32,428 nt of DNA from a virus (Duplodnaviria; Heunggongvirae; Uroviricota; Caudoviricetes), in IMG/VR virus record IMGVR_UViG_2690316184_000005, positions 1 through 32,428 of that record; one strand, 5' to 3'. The notes below the pieces were generated by a model, which had not been told where the DNA came from, searched no databases, and saw nothing but the letters and a program-made list of their open reading frames with translations. Position numbers and translations under genes: made by a program. Shown here piece by piece: positions 1,855 through 32,428 of this stretch. Position 1 is the first letter of the stretch, and every line of letters begins with the position of its first letter.

Positions 1855-3921
1855 TTATCGATAGAAAACAGTTTTCAGTCCTGTGTTAGTCCCAACAGAG
1901 GTAATCCCTCTGTAAAGGCCGACATTACTGTTGGTTGTGCTATCAACCCTAACGATTCCATCAATGTTATTTATAAGTGAATTTGTGGTTTGTACAGCGT
2001 TGACAGCATAAGATTTACTTTGTGCTGATATATTTGATGCAACTAAAGTACCAGTTGTCATTGATACACCAACGCTTGACGAACCACTCTCAAAAACTGA
2101 ATTTTTAACAATAGCTTTTGCAACCCCACCAGAAATGTTTATATCTGCTCCGTTAAATGCCTGACTGATTCTCTTGACGTCTGACACGCTGATCAGAGAT
2201 ATACGTCCACCTGATAATATATCAAAGAAGAATGAAGACCTTGTGGGATTTGAACTTGATACTGAAATATCACTTAAGTAAACATTACCAATATTAAATC
2301 CGTATCTGATTTCTAACAAAATCGCCCCGTCATAACCTTGCCCATATATGCCATTAATATTTACATACGGTGTTGTGTTATTAACTGCCCGAATTGCGAC
2401 TATGTATCTTGATCCTTCAGAGTGAATGTTATTCGCGTTTACCTGCCCGGAAGTTATCTGTAGACCTGCGCTTAGCTCATAGGTTGCTGTCGTCTTAAGA
2501 TAAACATCACTGATAGTATTGAACCCATCAGATGAATCAACACCATTGCCAATCCTTCCTCGCCCACTAACACCACGAACAACACAGGAACTACCATAAA
2601 CACTAACACAACTATACATAGGGTTAGTTGCTGAGGCGTCATCACAAACCGCAAATACATTTGTTACTGTAACATCATTGGCCTGAACTTTGACTGCTCG
2701 CTTAAGTGCATTGTAAGTATAAACGCCATCAACCTTTATTTTCTTCCCGCTGAGCATATTTGATGATGAGTTGTAAATCTGAATAACAACACCATCAGCA
2801 TCTTCCCAAGGGTTTAGCTTGTAAATCCTTACGTTACTTATAACTCCACTTGATACCTCATCATCATTTGATGGTACTGGATCAAGTGCCGTTCCTACAA
2901 GAATCCCTCGACATGGCCCAATTACATCAACCTGAATACCATTTCCAATGGTGGTAATATTATGTATTGATATGTTATCAACGACAAAATTCAATACAGA
3001 ATTTGCATCTATGAAAATACCATAAGTTAGTTGAGAACCATTACTATCAAAAACATCAACATTCTTAACTACTGGATTAACAGCCCCTGTTTTGATATGA
3101 ACAGGCCTTCTAATTGCCATCATATTGCAGTTAACTTTAATATTGTTAAGCATGCATGAGTTTACTGTTATAAATGATCCTTCATCTCCGATAGCAACAA
3201 TTTCACCATTAATCAAATCTTTCGTAATATTAATGGTGCTGGCTTTAACTGTAGTTCCGTTAAGGTCCACATTCAATCCGTGCGCCATAATAGATTCAAT
3301 TGAATATTTCGCATCAGCACTCGTATCGATATACTGAGATGGCCAAACCAGTGTGTTATGAGGTGAAGAGTATTTATAAGATAGGCCATTCCTTGTTAAA
3401 TATAACTGTGATGCTGATACCGAAAACCCATCGGCAAGACCTGTAATTCCCGGAGCATATTCGTAAATCTCACCTGAGGATGTGGTGATTTTAAAACCAA
3501 CATTTGGATCTGAATCCATGGCACCATGTAATGCCCCATTTACTAAATTAACCCCACCAACACCATCTAACTCCTGTCTTAGTTGGTCAGGGTCATACTT
3601 CAGCACATTAGGAAAATAGAACTGCTGCGCACCATACGCATCATATACAGCCATAGAATGGCCTTGCACAGTTACGAACTTGGCAATCTGCCCGTTATAT
3701 ACCGGGTAACCAGCAGCGTTAATGATGATTGGTTGCGAAACAGGAATGTGAGAACCGTCTTCGTTTTCCACATAAACCTGAATCTGGTTTTCAGGATTTA
3801 CCGGATCAGTGTCAATTTTACCGATATAAATTTTGCCATTGGCAACCGCTTTAAAAGAACGCGCCATAGTGAAGAGTTGCGAAGGCATGCTTACCACAAC
3901 ATTTGCGGTGATATCTGACAT
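1855..3921 (-). CDS. Tailspike protein: P22 gp9-type N-terminal head-binding domain fused to a divergent C-terminal receptor-binding/enzymatic domain
   Basis: N-terminus '[58 protein letters not shown]...[14 protein letters not shown]' matches my recollection of the P22 tailspike N-terminal domain; the rest does not resemble the P22 endorhamnosidase. Start at ATG 3921 (GGAG upstream), not track start 3969. Confidence 0.9.
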
Positions 3922-4042
3922 TTCATTGCTCCAGACGAATGATATGATGCAACCATGATGTGATTGCATACAGAAATGGTACTATTGAGTATTTATCCAG
4001 TAGGTTACGATGCCATTCCACCCAACTGGTGAGGCATCAAGG

Positions 4043-4309
4043 ATGTACAGCAAATACGACGAGGCGCAGTTTCACTTGAGACTTCCGCATGAACTCCACG
4101 CGAAAATTAAGCAGCGTGCGAAGATGAATAACAGATCGCTGAACTCAGAGATAATTGCAGCGATTGAAGAATCATTGGATAAACAAAACTCTGCATCTGT
4201 TTACATTGACGATGCAGAGCGTATGGCAGAACAACAATCTGAGATGGTTAAGAAAATTGTCTTTGATACGCTTAAGACCATGTATAGCAATAATAAAAAG
4301 GAAACATAG
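4043..4309 (+). CDS. mnt: Mnt-like ribbon-helix-helix repressor (Arc/MetJ fold)
   Basis: 'FHLRLPHELHAKIKQRAKMNNRSLNSEIIAAIEESL...DDAERMAEQQSEMVKKIVFDTLK' parallels P22 Mnt ('FNFRMPMEVREKLKFRAEANGRSMNSELLQIVQDAL...NDAERLADEQSELVKKMVFDTLK' as recalled). Start chosen at ATG 4043 (GGTGAGG RBS 8 nt upstream); track start 4010 also possible. Confidence 0.7.
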   Translation: MYSKYDEAQFHLRLPHELHAKIKQRAKMNNRSLNSEIIAAIEESLDKQNSASVYIDDAERMAEQQSEMVKKIVFDTLKTMYSNNKKET

Positions 4310-4379
4310 AAATCTAGTTTCCGGCTAAAATGGCATTTCCTTCATGATATCCTGTGAAAAACTAAGGAGAGTTAGCCAT

Positions 4380-4865
4380 ATGAAAAAATCACTGTTAATT
4401 ATCCCGCTTCTGCTGGTTGGATGCGCAAAAGTAAGTGACTATCAAGCAAGTTGCGAACAACGCTATCAAAAGCTTAGCGATATGGCTAATTGCCTTGATA
4501 CCAGTGTGAAGAACGACTCACGCATGGCATCAGCACCAACACCTAAGCTGTATGTCCTTGCTGCAAAGATGCTCGGGCAAGGTGTCGATGAAGGCAAGAT
4601 AAGTGACGCACAGGCAAGACTTGAGCTTCAGAATCTTTATGTTCAATTACAAAGCCAAGAACAAGCCCAACAAATAGCACAAAGCCAAGCATTCCAGCAG
4701 GCTTTATTGAATTATCAGGCTGTAAACACAATGCAAGCGATCGAGCAAAAAGCGCGCCAGCCTGTTATAACTCAACCTTACCCAACACGCGTTGACACAT
4801 ATACAAACTGCAATTCAGGATTTGGAAACACGGTAACATGCAACAGTAGCAGTAACATCAGATAA
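4380..4865 (+). CDS. Predicted lipoprotein with Gln-rich coiled-coil-like region; function unknown (candidate superinfection-exclusion/moron protein)
   Basis: Signal peptide plus lipobox 'MKKSLLIIPLLLVGC'; AAGGAGA RBS 9 nt upstream of ATG 4380; same strand and immediately downstream of mnt. Confidence 0.65.
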   Translation: MKKSLLIIPLLLVGCAKVSDYQASCEQRYQKLSDMANCLDTSVKNDSRMASAPTPKLYVLAAKMLGQGVDEGKISDAQARLELQNLYVQLQSQEQAQQIAQSQAFQQALLNYQAVNTMQAIEQKARQPVITQPYPTRVDTYTNCNSGFGNTVTCNSSSNIR

Positions 4866-4955: not shown

Positions 4956-7235
4956 CTATTCTGACAACGAATCAGACTTCGCACCCTGCGTCAGTGCATT
5001 AATCGCTTTTTGCGCTTGCTGCATGGCTTTCTCAAACGCTGTCGATCCGCGTGGGGTGTTTGCCATTCGGAGCATTGCATTTCTGAATGGCTCGCTCTCA
5101 TAGGCGCGAGTAAGAAGTCCGTAGCTTACTGCTGCGCCAGTTGTCGCCGGGTTCATTGCCGTCCCATATCCGATAATGAACGGGATGGTTTGCTGCCCTG
5201 TTGGTGTTGTTACTGCCGCTTTTGCTGCCTGCTGAGTGGACTGAAGGTAGTTTTTCAATCCTTTCAGATAAGCGGCTTCCTGACCTTTAAATGTGATGCC
5301 AGTCTGGTTTTGCAGGATGTTAAGCTGTCGAAGGAACTGGTCAGGGGAACCACCTGATTTCTCCATCGCCTTTCCAATGATGCCATTGCGCATTTGCGCC
5401 CTGCCAACACGACCAACTGAGTTATACAGCGTCTTAATTTCCGATTTGTTCTTGCTGAATAGCATGTTGTTGACAACTTCCGGCGTCAGGTCGCCTTTCA
5501 TGAGAACATTCTTCAGCCTGGTATTCTTTAGTTTCGCCGCTTCGTCAGCGTAGACGGCATTGGCCTGCTGATATTTACGGAGAGTATCGTTGCCAAGATT
5601 CTGACCAATGGCACCATTGATATCGTCTGTCATCGCCTTGTAAACGCGCTGAATGGCGGCATCGGAACGGTTTGGTAACACTGGTCGCTCACCCTTCACG
5701 TCCATTCTGAACTGGCTGCGCAGATCGCTTAATTGCTTCAAATCCAGATTTACCGGACCATCAGGACCAGCATTGCGAACAAGCTCATCACGATAGGACT
5801 GAAGTTTTGAAATAGTCTCGTTATCGGCGACCTTACCAAGCTTCTGCAGGTTAGATATTTCTGTATCAATCTGCTGAATTGCTCGAGCAGGCTGGATATT
5901 GACTCCCGCCATTGCATTCTGAACCTGCTCAAGACGGTTCCCTGCAGCACGACGAATTCCTGATGTTTTCGCTTTAAGGCTGTCAATAACAACAGCTGGA
6001 TCATACTCACCGAATTTATCAGCAAATCTCTGCACCAACTGGCTTCTCGCTTCCTGTTGCGTTGCTCTCATCCCGCTTGTGCCAGCCAGGGGGATATTTT
6101 CCGCTGTCGTCTGCGCCATTTTCCCGACGCGGGAAGTAGGCTGTAACAGGTCTGTGGTGTGCAGAGGAACTCCTTCACGCTCTGCAAATCTGATAGCCTG
6201 CTGCGCTTCTGGCGCAATAGCACCACGAACGCCACGATAAGCAGCACCTAATCCACGTCCGGCAGCGTTAATAGCACCGCCAGCCAGCACACCAACGCCT
6301 AAATCGGTGGCGAGGGCTTCCGCATCATCTTTCGCACTATTTGCAGCAAGTGATCCAACTGCGTTTTCTGCGAGAAGTCGTGTTGCACCCTGAGCAATTC
6401 GACCAGCAAGTGTTGGTGCCTGTACCGCCGCTCTCTCAACGCCAGCAGGAGTGAGGTAAGGCAATGCTTCAGCAAACACCCTGCCCTCTGTCGTTTGTGG
6501 AGTCAGCGCGCCTTGCTGAAGGCCAAAGTCCTGCTCTAATCCCTGCGTTGTTACTCGTGGCGCTGGTTGATATGTACCATCGCCAATGCCGAGTTTACCG
6601 CCAGCCCATGCAGCCGCACTTGTTACAGCATCGGCAACTGATGCAGGTATGTTTGCCACGTTCACGCCAGCCTGCACCAGTCCGCGACCAGTTTCAGCCG
6701 CGGCATTGCCAAGGTCGGAAATGAAACCTCCTTGCTGCTGTGGCGCTGCCTGTGTACTTTGCTGTACAGGCTGTTGTGTAGCTTGATTCTTCCTAGGGAG
6801 GTATTCATCAGCTTGCTGGTTGTGCAGACTCTCCGCATATGCAGTGGCATCGTCAGGATTGTCGAACATACCAAGATGCTTTCCCGTCCTCATGAAGTTA
6901 TCAATAGCTTCATCATCAGACATAATGCGACCATCATCACTAACGGTAGGAATCAGCACCTCTCTACCATCTATATTGGTAGACATGCTCCGCACAGTGC
7001 TAATGCTGCCATCAGAGTTTTTAACAACAGGCCGATTGTGAATGTCAATATTACCCTTCTCTAGCAGACCTCTAGGGTAAGCAGAGTAAAACGCTTGTTT
7101 TGCCTGCTCTGCATTTTCTCCGGCTTGCGGGGCCACGACTTCATTGAAGTATTGTTCCTGAGCCTGCGCTTTTTGTTCTGGTGCTAACGCCTGATACTGT
7201 GGAGAAGCGATAACATCTTTCCATGCTTTAGCCAT
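4956..7235 (-). CDS. Ejection (internal virion) protein, gp16 position of P22-like phages
   Basis: Synteny: last gene of the gp14-gp7-gp20-gp16 block; start overlaps upstream stop (TAATG); 759 aa with Ala/Gln-rich low-complexity stretches. Confidence 0.65.
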   Translation of the reverse strand: MAKAWKDVIASPQYQALAPEQKAQAQEQYFNEVVAPQAGENAEQAKQAFYSAYPRGLLEKGNIDIHNRPVVKNSDGSISTVRSMSTNIDGREVLIPTVSDDGRIMSDDEAIDNFMRTGKHLGMFDNPDDATAYAESLHNQQADEYLPRKNQATQQPVQQSTQAAPQQQGGFISDLGNAAAETGRGLVQAGVNVANIPASVADAVTSAAAWAGGKLGIGDGTYQPAPRVTTQGLEQDFGLQQGALTPQTTEGRVFAEALPYLTPAGVERAAVQAPTLAGRIAQGATRLLAENAVGSLAANSAKDDAEALATDLGVGVLAGGAINAAGRGLGAAYRGVRGAIAPEAQQAIRFAEREGVPLHTTDLLQPTSRVGKMAQTTAENIPLAGTSGMRATQQEARSQLVQRFADKFGEYDPAVVIDSLKAKTSGIRRAAGNRLEQVQNAMAGVNIQPARAIQQIDTEISNLQKLGKVADNETISKLQSYRDELVRNAGPDGPVNLDLKQLSDLRSQFRMDVKGERPVLPNRSDAAIQRVYKAMTDDINGAIGQNLGNDTLRKYQQANAVYADEAAKLKNTRLKNVLMKGDLTPEVVNNMLFSKNKSEIKTLYNSVGRVGRAQMRNGIIGKAMEKSGGSPDQFLRQLNILQNQTGITFKGQEAAYLKGLKNYLQSTQQAAKAAVTTPTGQQTIPFIIGYGTAMNPATTGAAVSYGLLTRAYESEPFRNAMLRMANTPRGSTAFEKAMQQAQKAINALTQGAKSDSLSE

Positions 7236-29770: not shown

Positions 29771-29828
29771 ATGTAAGTATTTCCTTAACAAATAAGAAGT
29801 TATGCGCACCAACTGATGCGCGTTGTAT

Positions 29829-29872
29829 TCCCGCATTTCGGCGGGAATAAGGACCATGACTGTTAAAGAGCG
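29829..29872 (-). promoter_or_regulatory. nutR (boxA + boxB hairpin) between cro and cII
   Basis: Minus strand: boxA-like CGCTCTTTAACA then boxB hairpin UCCCGCCGAAAUGCGGGA; same elements as at nutL. Confidence 0.6.
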
Positions 29873-29878
29873 GTGTTA

Positions 29879-30073
29879 CTATTTGTTTTTCTTGTTGCTT
29901 GGGAAAGGACGAACTTCCTCTCCAATCACACTGCCATCAGGCTTTACCGTAACCATAATGTTACGGCCTGCCAGAATGGCCTTGCTGATAGCGCACTGGA
30001 TTACACCAAAGTCACTGGCTGCTTTAGCCTGTCCATGGATTTTGGCGTAATCGGCAAGTGTCATTCGAATCAT
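29879..30073 (-). CDS. cro: Cro-like repressor
   Basis: '[59 protein letters not shown]' parallels lambda Cro ('[39 protein letters not shown]...EEVKPFPSNKK'); start ATG 30073 with GGAGAG RBS. Confidence 0.8.
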
Positions 30074-30102: not shown

Positions 30103-30173
30103 AGAATACTACAGGTATTCAAAGCAATCAATACTCAGGGTATTTTTAGTTTAAGTACCTTAGCTATTAGAAT
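30103..30173. promoter_or_regulatory. Right operator region: OR1 (30104-30120), OR2 (30130-30146), weak OR3 (30154-30170); pR (minus strand -35 30126-30131, -10 30103-30108); pRM (-10 TAGAAT 30168-30173, leaderless cI mRNA)
   Basis: 17-bp dyads GAATACTACAGGTATTC and CAATACTCAGGGTATTT with about 25-bp centre spacing; minus strand TTGATT-N17-TATTCT; TAGAAT 7 nt before the cI ATG. Confidence 0.6.
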
Positions 30174-30179
30174 TAAGCT

Positions 30180-30896
30180 ATGGAAAATAAAAAATCACTG
30201 ACGACAGAACAGCTCGAAGACGCTAAGCGGCTTAAGGCTTTGTATGAGTCAAAAAAGAAAGAATTGGGAATAACCCAATACTCAATCGCTGATGAACTGG
30301 GTATCACCCAAGGAGCGGTAGGGCATTATCTTAATGGCAGAAACGCGCTAAACGTTGAGGTTGCATCTGGTTTTGCGCGATTGTTGCAAGTCTCAATTGC
30401 TGATTTTAGCCAGTCAATTGCTGCCAAGGTTGCAGAACAGGCAGAAAGCCTTAAGAGCGATGCCAACGTAAGGTATGCAGGGGAATACAGAGCAGGAAAG
30501 AGGTATCCGGTGTTAAGCAGTATCCAGGCTGGCTCGTGGTGTGAAGCATGCGAACCATACACCATTAAAGACATAGATGTTTGGCTTGAGTCTGACGCGC
30601 ATATTCAAGGTAATGCGTTTTGGCTTAAAGTGGAAGGTGATTCAATGACGGCACCGGTTGGGTTAAGCATTCCAGAGGGAACATTCGTTCTTTTCGATAC
30701 CGGAAGGGAGGCGATCAACGGCAGCTTGGTCATAGCAAAACTTTCTGACTCTAACGAAGCAACATTCAAGAAGCTGATAATCGACGGCGGAAATAAATAC
30801 CTCAAGGGACTTAATCCTGCATGGCCTCTCATGCCAATCAATGGAAACTGCAAGATTATAGGCGTTGCAATTGAGACAAAACTAAGGCTGGTTTGA
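30180..30896 (+). CDS. cI: CI-type prophage repressor (HTH + LexA/S24-like autocleavage domain)
   Basis: 'LTTEQLEDAKRLKALYESKKKELGITQYSIADELGITQGAVGHYLNG' and C-terminal 'AFWLKVEGDSMTAPVG...FKKLI' parallel lambda CI; helix residues differ, so different immunity specificity. Confidence 0.9.
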   Translation: MENKKSLTTEQLEDAKRLKALYESKKKELGITQYSIADELGITQGAVGHYLNGRNALNVEVASGFARLLQVSIADFSQSIAAKVAEQAESLKSDANVRYAGEYRAGKRYPVLSSIQAGSWCEACEPYTIKDIDVWLESDAHIQGNAFWLKVEGDSMTAPVGLSIPEGTFVLFDTGREAINGSLVIAKLSDSNEATFKKLIIDGGNKYLKGLNPAWPLMPINGNCKIIGVAIETKLRLV

Positions 30897-30913
30897 TCAC
30901 GCAAGGGGCGATT

Positions 30914-31282
30914 ATGGTTGGAACCGCTATAGCAAGCTTTTTTGCGATGTTGGCAATCTCGACAATTTACGGCTTAGCGCATGCTTTTATTGCGAAATCT
31001 CTATCAGAAAAAATAAGCCAGGCTTGGGCGCATAGATCAGCTCGTTTCATGATTCTTGTGATCATAGCAATACAAGGGATATCTGCATTTATCCTCTATG
31101 GATCAAGCTTATACCTATTGTATCAAGGCGCGACATTTACGCCTTACACCAGTGATTACGGAACTCTATACGATGGTAGTGAAGACATCACTGTGGCTTG
31201 GATCGTCTTTGGTTTATCTATGGCCGTGTCTGTTGTAGCAGACATCATTAAGGTAATTCTCGTCTTAACCTTCGCTGACTAA
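30914..31282 (+). CDS. Small three-TM membrane protein co-oriented downstream of cI (rexB-position gene; candidate exclusion/abortive-infection protein)
   Basis: ATG 30914 with AAGGGG RBS 5 nt upstream; three hydrophobic segments (approx. residues 2-27, 45-70, 90-120); track TTG start 30893 rejected. Confidence 0.6.
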   Translation: MVGTAIASFFAMLAISTIYGLAHAFIAKSLSEKISQAWAHRSARFMILVIIAIQGISAFILYGSSLYLLYQGATFTPYTSDYGTLYDGSEDITVAWIVFGLSMAVSVVADIIKVILVLTFAD

Positions 31283-31367
31283 CCCATAATCCCGGCAGCA
31301 ATAGCTATCGGGATCCACTTCACATATCCCGCATAAAAATCACTGAACAAGCAGACAGCGAAAAAAT

Positions 31368-31455
31368 AAATATCCTTTGTATTCATTTGCTTATCATTAT
31401 TTCACCAAAAATAAATACCTTGGGTATTTACACAATAAAATACCTACAGTATTCT
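31368..31455 (+). promoter_or_regulatory. Left operator/promoter region: OL sites 31368-31384, 31412-31428, 31437-31453; pL (-35 TTTACA 31427-31432, -10 TATTCT 31450-31455)
   Basis: 17-bp dyads AAATATCCTTTGTATTC, AAATACCTTGGGTATTT, AAATACCTACAGTATTC share half-sites AAATAC/GTATTC with OR; -10 hexamer identical to pR. Confidence 0.55.
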
Positions 31456-31501
31456 TTAGCCATCAGCAGGACGCTGGAAGCCAAACGGAACAGATTGGCA
31501 G

Positions 31502-31542
31502 GCTCTTTAACATTGATGGGATTGTCCCGCCGAAATGCGGGA
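31502..31542 (+). promoter_or_regulatory. nutL (boxA + boxB hairpin) in the N leader
   Basis: GCTCTTTAACA (boxA-like) followed 12 nt later by TCCCGCCGAAATGCGGGA hairpin; identical to nutR elements. Confidence 0.6.
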
Positions 31543-31649
31543 ACCAAAGAGTAGTTGGCTTTGGGGTGACGTGAAGTGCAGCTGCACGACGGCAACCGGA
31601 AGATAAGCACCCGGCGCGTCACCGCCAAAGTCAATCATCGGAGGTCAAC

Positions 31650-31949
31650 ATGACAGTAGTCATTACATATCTGGCTGACGATAACGCCAGAAATCGCCGC
31701 AGAGCACGCAGACAGGCTCAACGTGAACAGGCAATGCAAGAGCAGCGACTGGCGAGAAAAATTGCGCTAAAGCTCTCTGGTTGCGTCAGAGCAGATAAAG
31801 CAGCATCACTCGGAAGCCTTCGCTGCAAGAAGGCAGAAGAGGTCGAGAGTAAACGGAATCGTATTTACTACCGCAAGCCACGCAGTGAAATGGGTGTGAC
31901 TTGTGTTGGTCGCCAGAAAATGAAATTAGGCAGCAAACCACTTATTTGA
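31650..31949 (+). CDS. N: N-type transcription antiterminator
   Basis: Arg-rich motif 'NARNRRRARRQAQREQ' near N-terminus; C-terminus 'IYYRKPRSEMGVTCVGRQKMKLGSKPLI' parallels lambda N 'TWYSKPGERGITCSGRQKIKGKSIPLI'; GGAGG RBS. Confidence 0.85.
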   Translation: MTVVITYLADDNARNRRRARRQAQREQAMQEQRLARKIALKLSGCVRADKAASLGSLRCKKAEEVESKRNRIYYRKPRSEMGVTCVGRQKMKLGSKPLI

Positions 31950-31957
31950 GGTGAGAT

Positions 31958-32428
31958 ATGACAAAATCATGGAGCGTACCTTTTCCTGAATCAGAAACTG
32001 AACATGATGGAATGCCTGTTTTCTGGAGATTCCAGGCGACAGTTGAAGAAGATGGGATAAAAATATTCGCACTTCAATATATAGCTTTTCATCAGACAGA
32101 GCATTATGCATGGTTGGTTCCTGCGCATTGGATTGTTAATTTTAAACCAGCACCAAATCAGTGGTTACAGGAATGGAAACAAAGGAGAAATAGATATGCA
32201 ATTAAGAAAGTAGCAAAAAATGCAGAAAGATCTTTTGCATTCCCAACGAAGAAACTTGCTATTGAAAGTTTATTGCGTCGGAAGAAATACCATTTAATGA
32301 GAATAAAACAAGATTTGGCTGTTGTATCAACTCTTGTTGATGGGATGAAAAATATTGATACATCAACACCAGATATTGAATATAACTTTGGACACAACCA
32401 AGAAACAGAAAATTGGGTATTTTATTAG
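31958..32428 (+). CDS. Hypothetical protein, first gene after N in the early-left operon; AT-rich
   Basis: 156-aa ORF, GAGGTGAG RBS 5 nt upstream of ATG 31958; basic central helix 'WKQRRNRYAIKKVAKNAER...LLRRKKYHLMRIKQ'; no family recognised. Confidence 0.55.
   Translation: MTKSWSVPFPESETEHDGMPVFWRFQATVEEDGIKIFALQYIAFHQTEHYAWLVPAHWIVNFKPAPNQWLQEWKQRRNRYAIKKVAKNAERSFAFPTKKLAIESLLRRKKYHLMRIKQDLAVVSTLVDGMKNIDTSTPDIEYNFGHNQETENWVFY

What the first reader, a model, noticed from the sequence alone, without database searches (positions are those of the whole stretch)
30914..31282. Small three-TM membrane protein in the rexAB slot downstream of cI
In lambda the lysogen-expressed cI transcript continues into rexA-rexB, an abortive-infection/exclusion system. 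Here cI is followed 18 nt later by one 122-aa protein with three predicted transmembrane helices and a good RBS, before OL/pL. Position and orientation imply expression in the lysogen, so this is a candidate single-gene exclusion or abortive-infection determinant that does not resemble RexB.
Basis: partly seen in the sequence, partly recalled or inferred. Interest (0 to 1): 0.6.

Follow-up and report, generated by a model that had tools for sequence, protein, structure and literature searches.

The report
Unstudied membrane gene hkaS after cI
The small gene just after the phage repressor gene is real: it is hkaS, first listed in phage HK620 in 2001 and never studied, it encodes a three-helix inner-membrane protein with no known relatives, and it probably helps a dormant phage shut out rival phages, though nobody has tested that.

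Summary
ORF 30914-31282 (+) starts 17 nt after the cI stop codon, has an AAGGGG ribosome-binding site and encodes 122 aa with three transmembrane helices. It lies upstream of OL/pL.

It is not a new ORF. It is hkaS of phage HK620 (98% identical, annotated 'unknown'), equivalent to phrog_6534. The family has no relatives elsewhere: one cluster at 50% identity among 1.84 billion representative proteins, and no match in Pfam, NCBIfam, PADLOC or PDB. It shows no similarity to RexB or to P22 SieA.

The gene is maintained by selection:
- It was intact in all 80 IMG/VR copies checked.
- dN/dS is about 0.15-0.25, against 0.01-0.03 for cI.
- In E. coli complete genomes it occurs in 146 of 5426, the same count as the HK620-type cI gene.

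It is nevertheless movable cargo. In a Buttiauxella prophage it follows a hybrid repressor of different immunity specificity. In two metagenomic prophages a 57-59% identical homologue sits after phage tRNA genes and upstream of the lysis genes, the position stx genes hold in Stx phages as I recall it.

Function is untested. My best guess (confidence about 0.35) is a lysogen-expressed inner-membrane protein that blocks superinfection at the DNA-entry step. The rivals are Rex-like abortive infection, modulation of the lysis-lysogeny switch, and a host-physiology role. Interest is moderate.

The parts
30180..30896 (+). cI repressor of HK620 immunity type, 238 aa. First gene of the immunity operon.
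   Evidence: HTH_3 and Peptidase_S24 domains. More than 99% identical to HK620/HK630/mEpX2 cI over the C-terminal domain. Found in 146 of 5426 complete E. coli genomes, the same count as hkaS.
30903..30908 (+). Shine-Dalgarno-like AAGGGG, 5 nt before the hkaS ATG.
   Evidence: Read directly from the sequence.
30914..31282 (+). hkaS: 122-aa protein with three transmembrane helices. Predicted topology is N-terminus out, basic loop 28-44 in the cytoplasm, acidic loop 72-92 in the periplasm, C-terminus in.
31289..31314 (+). Stem-loop in the 3' untranslated region just after the hkaS stop. It lacks a U-tract. Candidate 3' end or stabiliser of the cI-hkaS transcript.
   Evidence: RNA fold. Hairpins of different sequence sit at the equivalent position in the Salmonella, L008 and Hafnia loci. 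A canonical terminator occupies it in Buttiauxella locus L014, 3389-3416.
31368..31454 (+). OL operators: OL3 31368-31384, OL2 31413-31429, OL1 31438-31454. The pL promoter overlaps them, with -35 TTTACA at 31427 and -10 TATTCT ending at 31455.
   Evidence: Pattern search, promoter scan, HK620 annotation for OL1, OL2 and pL, conservation in other loci.
30104..30169 (+). OR operators between cro and cI: OR1 30104-30120, OR2 30129-30145, OR3 about 30153-30169. The pRM region lies here.
   Evidence: for OR1 and OR2. OR3 and pR come from the HK620 annotation transferred with an offset of 27299.
31502..31543 (+). nutL: boxA GCTCTTTAA (31502-31510) and the boxB hairpin (31525-31543).
   Evidence: Inverted copies of nutR at 29828-29871 (pairs I2 and I4). 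HK620 annotation.
31650..31949 (+). N antiterminator gene, first gene of the pL operon. It marks the far end of the slot.
   Evidence: phrog_271, E = 4e-36. HK620 annotation.

Best explanation
hkaS is an accessory ('moron'-type) gene carried inside the immunity operon of HK620-type lambdoid and P22-like prophages.

**Shown.**
- It is a real gene under purifying selection.
- It encodes a 122-aa protein that is almost entirely membrane-embedded, with three helices.
- It sits 17 nt after cI on the same strand, has its own ribosome-binding site, and is followed by a stem-loop before OL.

**Inferred.**
- It is transcribed with cI from pRM (and from pRE), so the protein is present in the inner membrane of every lysogen.
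- Most likely mechanism: it acts at the inner membrane to stop superinfecting phages at the DNA-entry step. It would either obstruct the channel that incoming tail or ejection proteins build, or mask an inner-membrane host factor they need. P22 SieA and HK97 gp15, which are unrelated in sequence, work this way. The cell would not be killed.
For: **A real, selected gene.**
- Intact in all 80 IMG/VR copies.
- dN/dS is 0.15 against Hafnia and 0.25 within the population.
- Conserved down to 52% identity, with invariant motifs K33-x2-Q-x-W-x-H-x2-ARF and D110-x2-K-x-I-x-VLTFAD at the C-terminus.

**Membrane protein.**

**Operon position.**
-.
- The same cI-hkaS-OL order holds in Salmonella, Hafnia, Buttiauxella and an uncultured prophage (L008), while the flanking genes differ.
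- A terminator or hairpin follows the gene.

**The slot holds defence genes elsewhere.** Lambda has rexAB there and BTP1 has bstA. The cI-N region is described as a hotspot of mosaic diversity (PMC8585504). Epsilon34 genes 44 and 45 are described as placed 'like rexA and rexB' (PMC2629481).

**Functional analogues.**
- P22 SieA is a 162-164-aa inner-membrane protein with three transmembrane segments that blocks DNA injection (PMC10883804).
- HK97 gp15 is a small inner-membrane protein that blocks genome injection (PMC3594210).

**Why entry block rather than suicide.**
- There is no soluble domain and no partner gene that could sense infection.
- The homologue placed between phage tRNA genes and the holin gene would presumably be made late in the phage's own lytic cycle. 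An entry blocker is harmless or useful there. A depolarising effector would risk triggering the holin early.
- The gene travels with podovirus (HK620, phi367) and siphovirus (HK630, a Lambdavirus) backbones and with Stx2c phages, so it is not tied to one virion type.
Against: - No experiment exists on this protein in any paper I could search.
- No sequence or fold similarity to SieA, RexB or any known defence protein. The function rests on position and architecture only.
- The most conserved parts, loop 1 and the C-terminus, are predicted to face the cytoplasm, not the periplasm where incoming phage proteins arrive.
- Lysogen expression is inferred, not measured.
- The stem-loop after the gene in this window lacks a U-tract.
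- The cI-OL slot also holds non-defence or unknown cargo in other phages: an exported protein in phage 434 and a P63C-domain protein in Midgardsormr38.
Confidence: 0.35

Rival explanations
1. Single-gene abortive-infection effector, a 'RexB without RexA'. HkaS would oligomerise in the inner membrane and collapse membrane potential when a superinfecting phage perturbs the membrane. The cell would die and the clone would be protected.
For: - It occupies the same slot and orientation as rexAB.
- Invariant polar or charged residues lie inside the predicted helices (Q54, D110, K113), as expected for a channel or for oligomer contacts.
Against: - No sensor domain and no partner gene.
- No similarity to RexB: hhalign probability 0.6%, and three helices rather than four.
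- No PADLOC hit.
- The homologue sitting just upstream of a holin in late-gene territory would be dangerous to its own phage if it depolarised membranes.
Confidence: 0.15
2. Modulator of the phage's own life cycle rather than a defence gene. HkaS would tune the lysis-lysogeny switch or induction, for example by holding the repressor's C-terminal domain at the membrane as proposed for RexB and CI. Alternatively it would tune lysis timing.
For: - RexA and RexB modulate the lambda switch, and RexB interacts with CI in a two-hybrid assay (bioRxiv 10.1101/2021.04.19.439022).
- The hkaS and HK620-type cI counts match across E. coli complete genomes: 146 genomes and 147 places each.
- In Buttiauxella the repressor has a different DNA-binding domain but keeps the 88%-identical C-terminal domain next to hkaS.
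- The most conserved HkaS segments are predicted to face the cytoplasm.
- The second genomic context adjoins the lysis cassette.
Against: - Homologues L178 and L220 lie far from any repressor gene, so no obligate cI partnership exists.
- The linkage is equally explained by adjacency inside an immunity module that must be inherited whole.
- HkaS evolves 4-5 times faster than cI at the protein level. It has 24 protein alleles against 5 for cI in the same loci. That is unlike a tightly co-adapted partner.
- It lacks the charged C-terminal tail I recall as typical of class I holins. It has no PHROG lysis-family match beyond a weak amidase hit at E = 0.18.
Confidence: 0.12
3. Lysogenic-conversion gene unrelated to phage-phage conflict. 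The small inner-membrane protein would alter host physiology, for example bacteriocin or colicin immunity, stress or ion tolerance, or modulation of a transporter.
For: - Many moron products benefit the host in ways unrelated to phage defence (PMC3594210).
- From my own knowledge, the size and three-helix architecture resemble E1/Ia-type pore-forming colicin immunity proteins.
- The gene occurs in two classical moron hotspots.
- It has lower GC than its surroundings, 42% against 47.9%.
Against: - No Pfam or NCBIfam match to any immunity, transporter or stress family.
- No bacteriocin gene lies nearby.
- The family is confined to prophages of a few Enterobacterales genera and has no chromosomal homologues.
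Confidence: 0.2

Closest known systems
HkaS of coliphage HK620 (AAK28867, 'unknown'), equivalent to phrog_6534
   Same: It is the same gene. It is 98% identical, sits at the identical position between cI and OL, and matches the PHROG profile over its full length.
   Different: Only a few amino-acid substitutions. No function has ever been assigned.
Lambda RexB (with RexA)
   Same: It occupies the same slot downstream of cI in the immunity operon. It is a small integral inner-membrane protein, presumably made in the lysogen.
   Different: No sequence similarity. Three helices rather than four. No RexA-like partner. No internal promoter like pLIT was found.
P22 SieA superinfection-exclusion protein
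   Same: A prophage-encoded inner-membrane protein with three predicted transmembrane segments and no soluble domain. It acts alone.
   Different: No sequence similarity. HkaS lacks the FxRYPxEAxxFNK motif. It is 122 aa rather than 162-164. It lies in a different genomic location, the immunity operon rather than the ant moron next to gene 16.
HK97 gp15 (moron-encoded inner-membrane exclusion protein)
   Same: A small inner-membrane protein expressed from a lambdoid prophage that blocks genome injection without touching the outer-membrane receptor.
   Different: An unrelated family (YebO-like). It sits in the tail operon and has its own promoter and terminator.
BstA of Salmonella prophage BTP1
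   Same: It is encoded directly downstream of the cI repressor and presumably shares its promoter.
   Different: Described in the paper as localising to sites of phage DNA replication and causing abortive infection. Not a membrane protein, and no PADLOC model matched HkaS.

Membership tests
HkaS / phrog_6534 | Full-length sequence match to the family profile | tested here: met
   E = 2.2e-78, residues 1-122 matched to profile positions 1-122. 98% identical to HK620 HkaS.
RexB (lambda Rex system) | Sequence homology to RexB | tested here: not met
   hhalign probability 0.6%. No Pfam hit.
RexB (lambda Rex system) | Four transmembrane segments and a co-encoded RexA sensor | tested here: not met
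   Three helices. The only ORF between cI and OL is hkaS.
RexB (lambda Rex system) | Located downstream of cI in the pRM operon | tested here: met
   17 nt after cI, same strand, before OL.
P22 SieA | Sequence homology and the conserved cytoplasmic motif FxRYPxEAxxFNK | tested here: not met
   BLASTP E = 1.1, hhalign probability 0.3%. The motif is defined in PMC10883804 and is absent from the HkaS sequence.
P22 SieA | Inner-membrane protein with three or four transmembrane segments that blocks DNA injection on its own | not testable with these tools
   The architecture is compatible. The phenotype needs experiment.
Class I holin | Three transmembrane domains (N-out, C-in), a highly charged cytoplasmic C-terminal tail, and a position at the head of the lysis cassette (features as I recall them) | tested here: not met
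   The topology is compatible. The protein ends at TFAD straight after helix 3. No PHROG lysis-family match beyond a weak amidase hit at E = 0.18. In L178 and L220 a separate holin is present downstream.
Known anti-phage defence systems (PADLOC-DB v2) | Match to any defence-protein model | tested here: not met
   No families at E <= 1.
Moron (Hendrix definition) | Extra gene flanked by its own promoter and terminator, present in some related genomes and absent in others | tested here: inconclusive
   No own promoter was detected in the window. A hairpin but no U-tract follows the gene. Related repressors carry other cargo in the same slot. The gene also occurs in a second slot, bounded by tRNA genes and a terminator.
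Pore-forming colicin immunity proteins (E1/Ia type) | Sequence family membership and adjacency to a colicin gene | tested here: not met
   No Pfam or NCBIfam hit. No colicin-like ORF nearby. The resemblance in size and helix number is from memory only.

The most novel reading that the evidence does not exclude
HkaS would be the founding member of a one-protein, sensor-less membrane immunity module. A 122-aa three-helix protein would by itself detect and abort, or block, phage genome entry. It would be portable between the repressor operon and the late (stx-type) cargo slot. In a more exotic version, it would couple the repressor's C-terminal domain to the state of the inner membrane, linking envelope perturbation to the lysis-lysogeny switch.
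Probability: 0.12. Interest if true: 0.7.

Novelty: new member of a known kind. Interest (0 to 1): 0.4.

Why it matters
About 2.7% of complete E. coli genomes carry this gene, including those with Stx2c-converting phages, as do Salmonella, Enterobacter and Hafnia prophages. [quoted passage not shown]

If it is an exclusion protein, it adds a new, very small family to the short list of inner-membrane entry blockers (SieA, gp15, Imm). It would also affect how phage-therapy or typing phages plate on such lysogens.

The two-slot distribution and the hybrid-repressor case are a clean natural example of one cargo gene moving between the two classical moron hotspots of lambdoid phages. If hkaS turns out to have no phage phenotype, that is a useful caution against assigning defence function from position alone.

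Tried and rejected
- **Family and sequence searches.** Pfam, NCBIfam and PADLOC scans and the PDB sequence search found nothing.
- **Profile comparisons.** HkaS against P22 SieA, lambda RexB and the phage 434 post-cI protein gave probabilities below 1%.
- **Deep profile search.** A search of 1.84 billion representative proteins found no remote relatives.
- **The 35-aa minus-strand hydrophobic ORF at 31279-31386.** It overlaps the hkaS stop. I considered it as a possible partner or toxin and rejected it because it is not conserved in the Salmonella and L008 loci.
- **The 65-aa ORF at 31377-31574.** It is annotated in HK630 and phi367. I rejected it because it lies across OL, pL and nutL.
- **Internal promoter for hkaS, analogous to pLIT.** None was found.
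- **Literature.** Searches for hkaS, the HK620, HK630, HK140 and mEpX2 phages, and 'repressor protection protein' gave no functional data. The HK620 genome paper is not held.
- **Obligate cI partnership.** I considered this on the strength of the matching 146-genome counts, then downgraded it after finding L178 and L220.

Full report
**1. What is at the coordinates**

The window is a P22-like E. coli phage or prophage read in reverse orientation. It carries portal, coat, ejection-protein and tailspike genes on the minus strand. Its right end carries a lambdoid immunity region:

- cro at 29879-30073 (-), with the start taken from the HK620 annotation
- OR operators at 30104-30169
- cI at 30180-30896 (+)
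- the ORF in question at 30914-31282 (+)
- OL and pL at 31368-31455
- nutL at 31502-31543
- N at 31650-31949 (+)

The ORF starts 17 nt after the cI stop codon. AAGGGG lies 5 nt before its ATG. It encodes 122 aa.

Hydropathy analysis and an AlphaFold2 model (mean pLDDT 89) agree on three long helices, at about 2-29, 41-74 and 89-121. The loop between helices 1 and 2 is basic (K28, K33, R41, R44). The loop between helices 2 and 3 is acidic (D81, D87, E90, D91) and carries a small beta hairpin. By the positive-inside rule the topology is N-terminus out and C-terminus in.

**2. Identity**

The gene is hkaS of coliphage HK620. It is 98% identical to AAK28867, whose product is annotated 'unknown'. 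It matches phrog_6534 (unknown function) end to end.

The same immunity region, at 96-99% DNA identity, is carried by HK630, HK140, mEpX2, HF4s, HZ41, vB_EcoP-611R6, phi296, phi367 and two Stx2c-converting phages. These include podovirus (HK620, phi367) and siphovirus (HK630) backbones.

In RefSeq complete E. coli genomes the gene occurs in 146 of 5426, always as 'hypothetical protein'. Every source name in its 525-member cluster is 'hypothetical' or 'uncharacterized'.

**3. A family with no relatives**

- A word-indexed search of 5.8 billion proteins found 12 clusters at 90% identity, reaching down to 52% identity.
- A full HMM search of 1.84 billion 50%-identity representatives found one full-length cluster and one fragment.
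- Pfam, NCBIfam, PADLOC and the PDB sequence search gave nothing.
- Profile comparison with lambda RexB, P22 SieA and the phage 434 protein in the same slot gave probabilities below 1%.

**4. A real, selected gene that is less constrained than cI**

- Against the Hafnia homologue, hkaS has dN 0.097 and dS 0.66, a ratio of 0.15. For cI in the same pair the ratio is 0.03.
- In every lineage pair, the hkaS dN is 4-5 times the cI dN.
- Among 80 IMG/VR loci the gene is intact in all 80.
- In those loci hkaS shows 19 synonymous and 23 nonsynonymous segregating changes and 24 protein alleles. The neighbouring cI shows 37 synonymous, 4 nonsynonymous and 5 protein alleles.

Most hkaS changes are conservative swaps within the helices.

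Nine lineages share invariant residues concentrated in two places:

- Loop 1 and the start of helix 2: K33, Q36, W38, H40, A43, R44, F45, Q54.
- The end of helix 3 and the C-terminus: D110, K113, I115 and the terminal VLTFAD.

Both regions are predicted to face the cytoplasm. The far half of the periplasmic loop is the most variable part.

**5. Genomic context across relatives**

Of about 176 fetched loci with enough upstream DNA, 174 have a full HK620-type cI directly upstream. This includes the Salmonella, Hafnia and other divergent versions. In those, the replication, N and recombination genes differ, but the operators keep the AAATAC/GTATTT half-sites.

In E. coli complete genomes the cI and hkaS counts are identical, at 146 genomes and 147 places each.

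There are two kinds of exception.

*Hybrid repressor.* In an uncultured Buttiauxella genome (L014) and a metagenome contig (L222):

- The repressor has an unrelated N-terminal DNA-binding domain.
- Cro and the operators are different (TTAAGT-type).
- The C-terminal domain is 88% identical, and a 55%-identical hkaS follows it.
- The gene ends with a textbook intrinsic terminator.

*Late-gene slot.* In two metagenomic prophage fragments (L178, the same contig as L219, and L220):

- A 57-59% identical, fully intact homologue lies far from any repressor.
- It starts 21 nt after a phage tRNA-Thr gene. In L178 this is the last of three tRNA genes downstream of a Q-like antiterminator.
- It is followed by a terminator, a 72-aa ORF (phrog_5440), a second terminator, and then holin, endolysin and spanin genes.
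- The tRNA-hkaS-ORF72 module is 94% identical between the two contigs, while the lysis cassettes differ.

As I recall the Stx-phage gene order, this is the slot that holds stx. That recollection was not checked here.

Repressors whose C-terminal domain is 84% identical or less carry other cargo after cI:

- an exported 134-aa protein in phage 434
- a P63C-domain protein in Erwinia phage Midgardsormr38
- rexAB in lambda

hkaS is therefore movable cargo that has lodged in the two classical moron hotspots of lambdoid phages. It is not an obligate partner of one repressor.

**6. Expression**

This part is inferred, not shown.

- The consensus scan found no promoter-like or terminator-like site between cI and hkaS.
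- A stable stem-loop follows the stop codon at 31289-31314 but lacks a U-tract.
- Hairpins of different sequence occupy the same position in the Salmonella, L008 and Hafnia loci. A canonical terminator occupies it in Buttiauxella.

This is the architecture of the lambda cI-rexA-rexB-tIMM operon as described in bioRxiv 10.1101/2021.04.19.439022. Expression in the lysogen from pRM, and from pRE during establishment, is therefore the expected behaviour. No transcript data were available.

**7. Mechanism**

*Arguments for defence.* They rest on position and architecture.

- The cI-N interval is a recognised hotspot that holds rexAB and bstA (PMC8585504).
- Small inner-membrane proteins made by prophages and lacking soluble domains have repeatedly proved to be entry blockers. 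P22 SieA has three transmembrane segments and acts alone through the ejection proteins (PMC10883804). HK97 gp15 is another example (PMC3594210).

*Why I favour an entry block over Rex-like suicide.*

- HkaS has neither a sensor domain nor a partner gene.
- A homologue is tolerated immediately upstream of a holin in late-gene territory. A depolarising protein there would risk triggering lysis prematurely.

*Arguments against.*

- The best-conserved surfaces are predicted to be cytoplasmic.
- There is no experimental evidence of any kind.

*Rivals.*

- Abortive infection, 0.15.
- A role in the phage's own switch or lysis timing, 0.12. This is prompted by the RexA/RexB findings and by the retained link to the repressor C-terminal domain, and weakened by L178 and L220 and by the fast evolution of HkaS.
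- A host-physiology function, 0.2.
- The remainder covers no significant function.

**8. Verdict**

Its positional reasoning is sound, and its statement about RexB is right. The gene is not newly discovered, though. It is the known but uncharacterised hkaS, and the defence role remains a hypothesis.

New here are:

- the demonstration that the family has no relatives and is under purifying selection
- its matching counts with the HK620-type cI gene in E. coli
- the hybrid-repressor case
- the second, late-gene location

I rate it a new, non-homologous member of a known kind, namely prophage cargo encoding a small inner-membrane protein. Interest is moderate.

Noticed in passing
window 4344-4865 (+): An ORF occupies the slot that holds sieA in P22, between an mnt-like gene (4010-4309) and the gene-16-like ejection gene (4956-7235). 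From Met13 it reads MKKSLLIIPLLLVGC, a lipoprotein signal with a lipobox. It matches phrog_6067 (unknown function). It has no transmembrane helix, no SieA motif and no similarity to P22 SieA. It is a second candidate lysogenic-conversion or exclusion gene in this phage.
   Followed up: partly
window 31368-31384 versus 31391-31407: The third left operator found by the consensus AAATACnnnnnGTATTT lies at 31368-31384, 45 bp from OL2. It is conserved in the Salmonella, Hafnia and L008 loci. The HK620 GenBank annotation, transferred by offset, puts OL3 at 31391-31407 and draws tIMM over 31364-31394. That annotation is probably misplaced.
   Followed up: partly
L178 2250-3435 and L220 1-1100: A module of tRNA-Thr, an hkaS homologue, a terminator, a 72-aa ORF (phrog_5440) and a second terminator is 94% identical between two metagenomic prophages. 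Their holin and endolysin genes differ. L178 begins with a host tRNA-Arg and an integrase remnant that appears fused to a Q-like ORF, so it may be a decayed prophage.
   Followed up: partly
L014 2333-2980 (Buttiauxella) and L222: A hybrid repressor. The N-terminal DNA-binding domain, Cro and the operators belong to a different immunity type. The C-terminal domain is 88% identical to the HK620-type cI. This is a natural domain swap with its junction in the linker.
   Followed up: yes
window 31279-31386 (-): A 35-aa hydrophobic ORF on the opposite strand overlaps the hkaS stop and the 3' stem-loop. It is not conserved in the Salmonella and L008 loci, so it is probably spurious.
   Followed up: yes
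L095 2193-2597 (phage 434): The gene after the 434 cI overlaps the cI stop. It encodes a 134-aa protein with an N-terminal signal peptide and is annotated 'repressor protection protein'. No paper using that name was found.
   Followed up: partly
window 31650-31949 and 31958-32428: Similarity to HK620 ends near 31840, inside the N gene, so there is a mosaic junction within N. N here is 99 aa against 90 aa in HK620. The next ORF, 156 aa and matching phrog_1636 (unknown function), ends exactly at the window edge.
   Followed up: no
L217 and L218 (CYGL01000194.1, CYGL01002683.1) 3001-3332: These are the only copies in which hkaS departs from the family, after about codon 79, with a stop at codon 108. 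Both lie at a contig end, so the cause may be an assembly break, an insertion or a true truncation.
   Followed up: no
window 30168-30180: TAGAAT at 30168-30173 lies 6 nt before the cI ATG. This suggests a leaderless cI mRNA from pRM, as I recall for lambda. hkaS, by contrast, has a normal ribosome-binding site. This was read from the sequence only.
   Followed up: no
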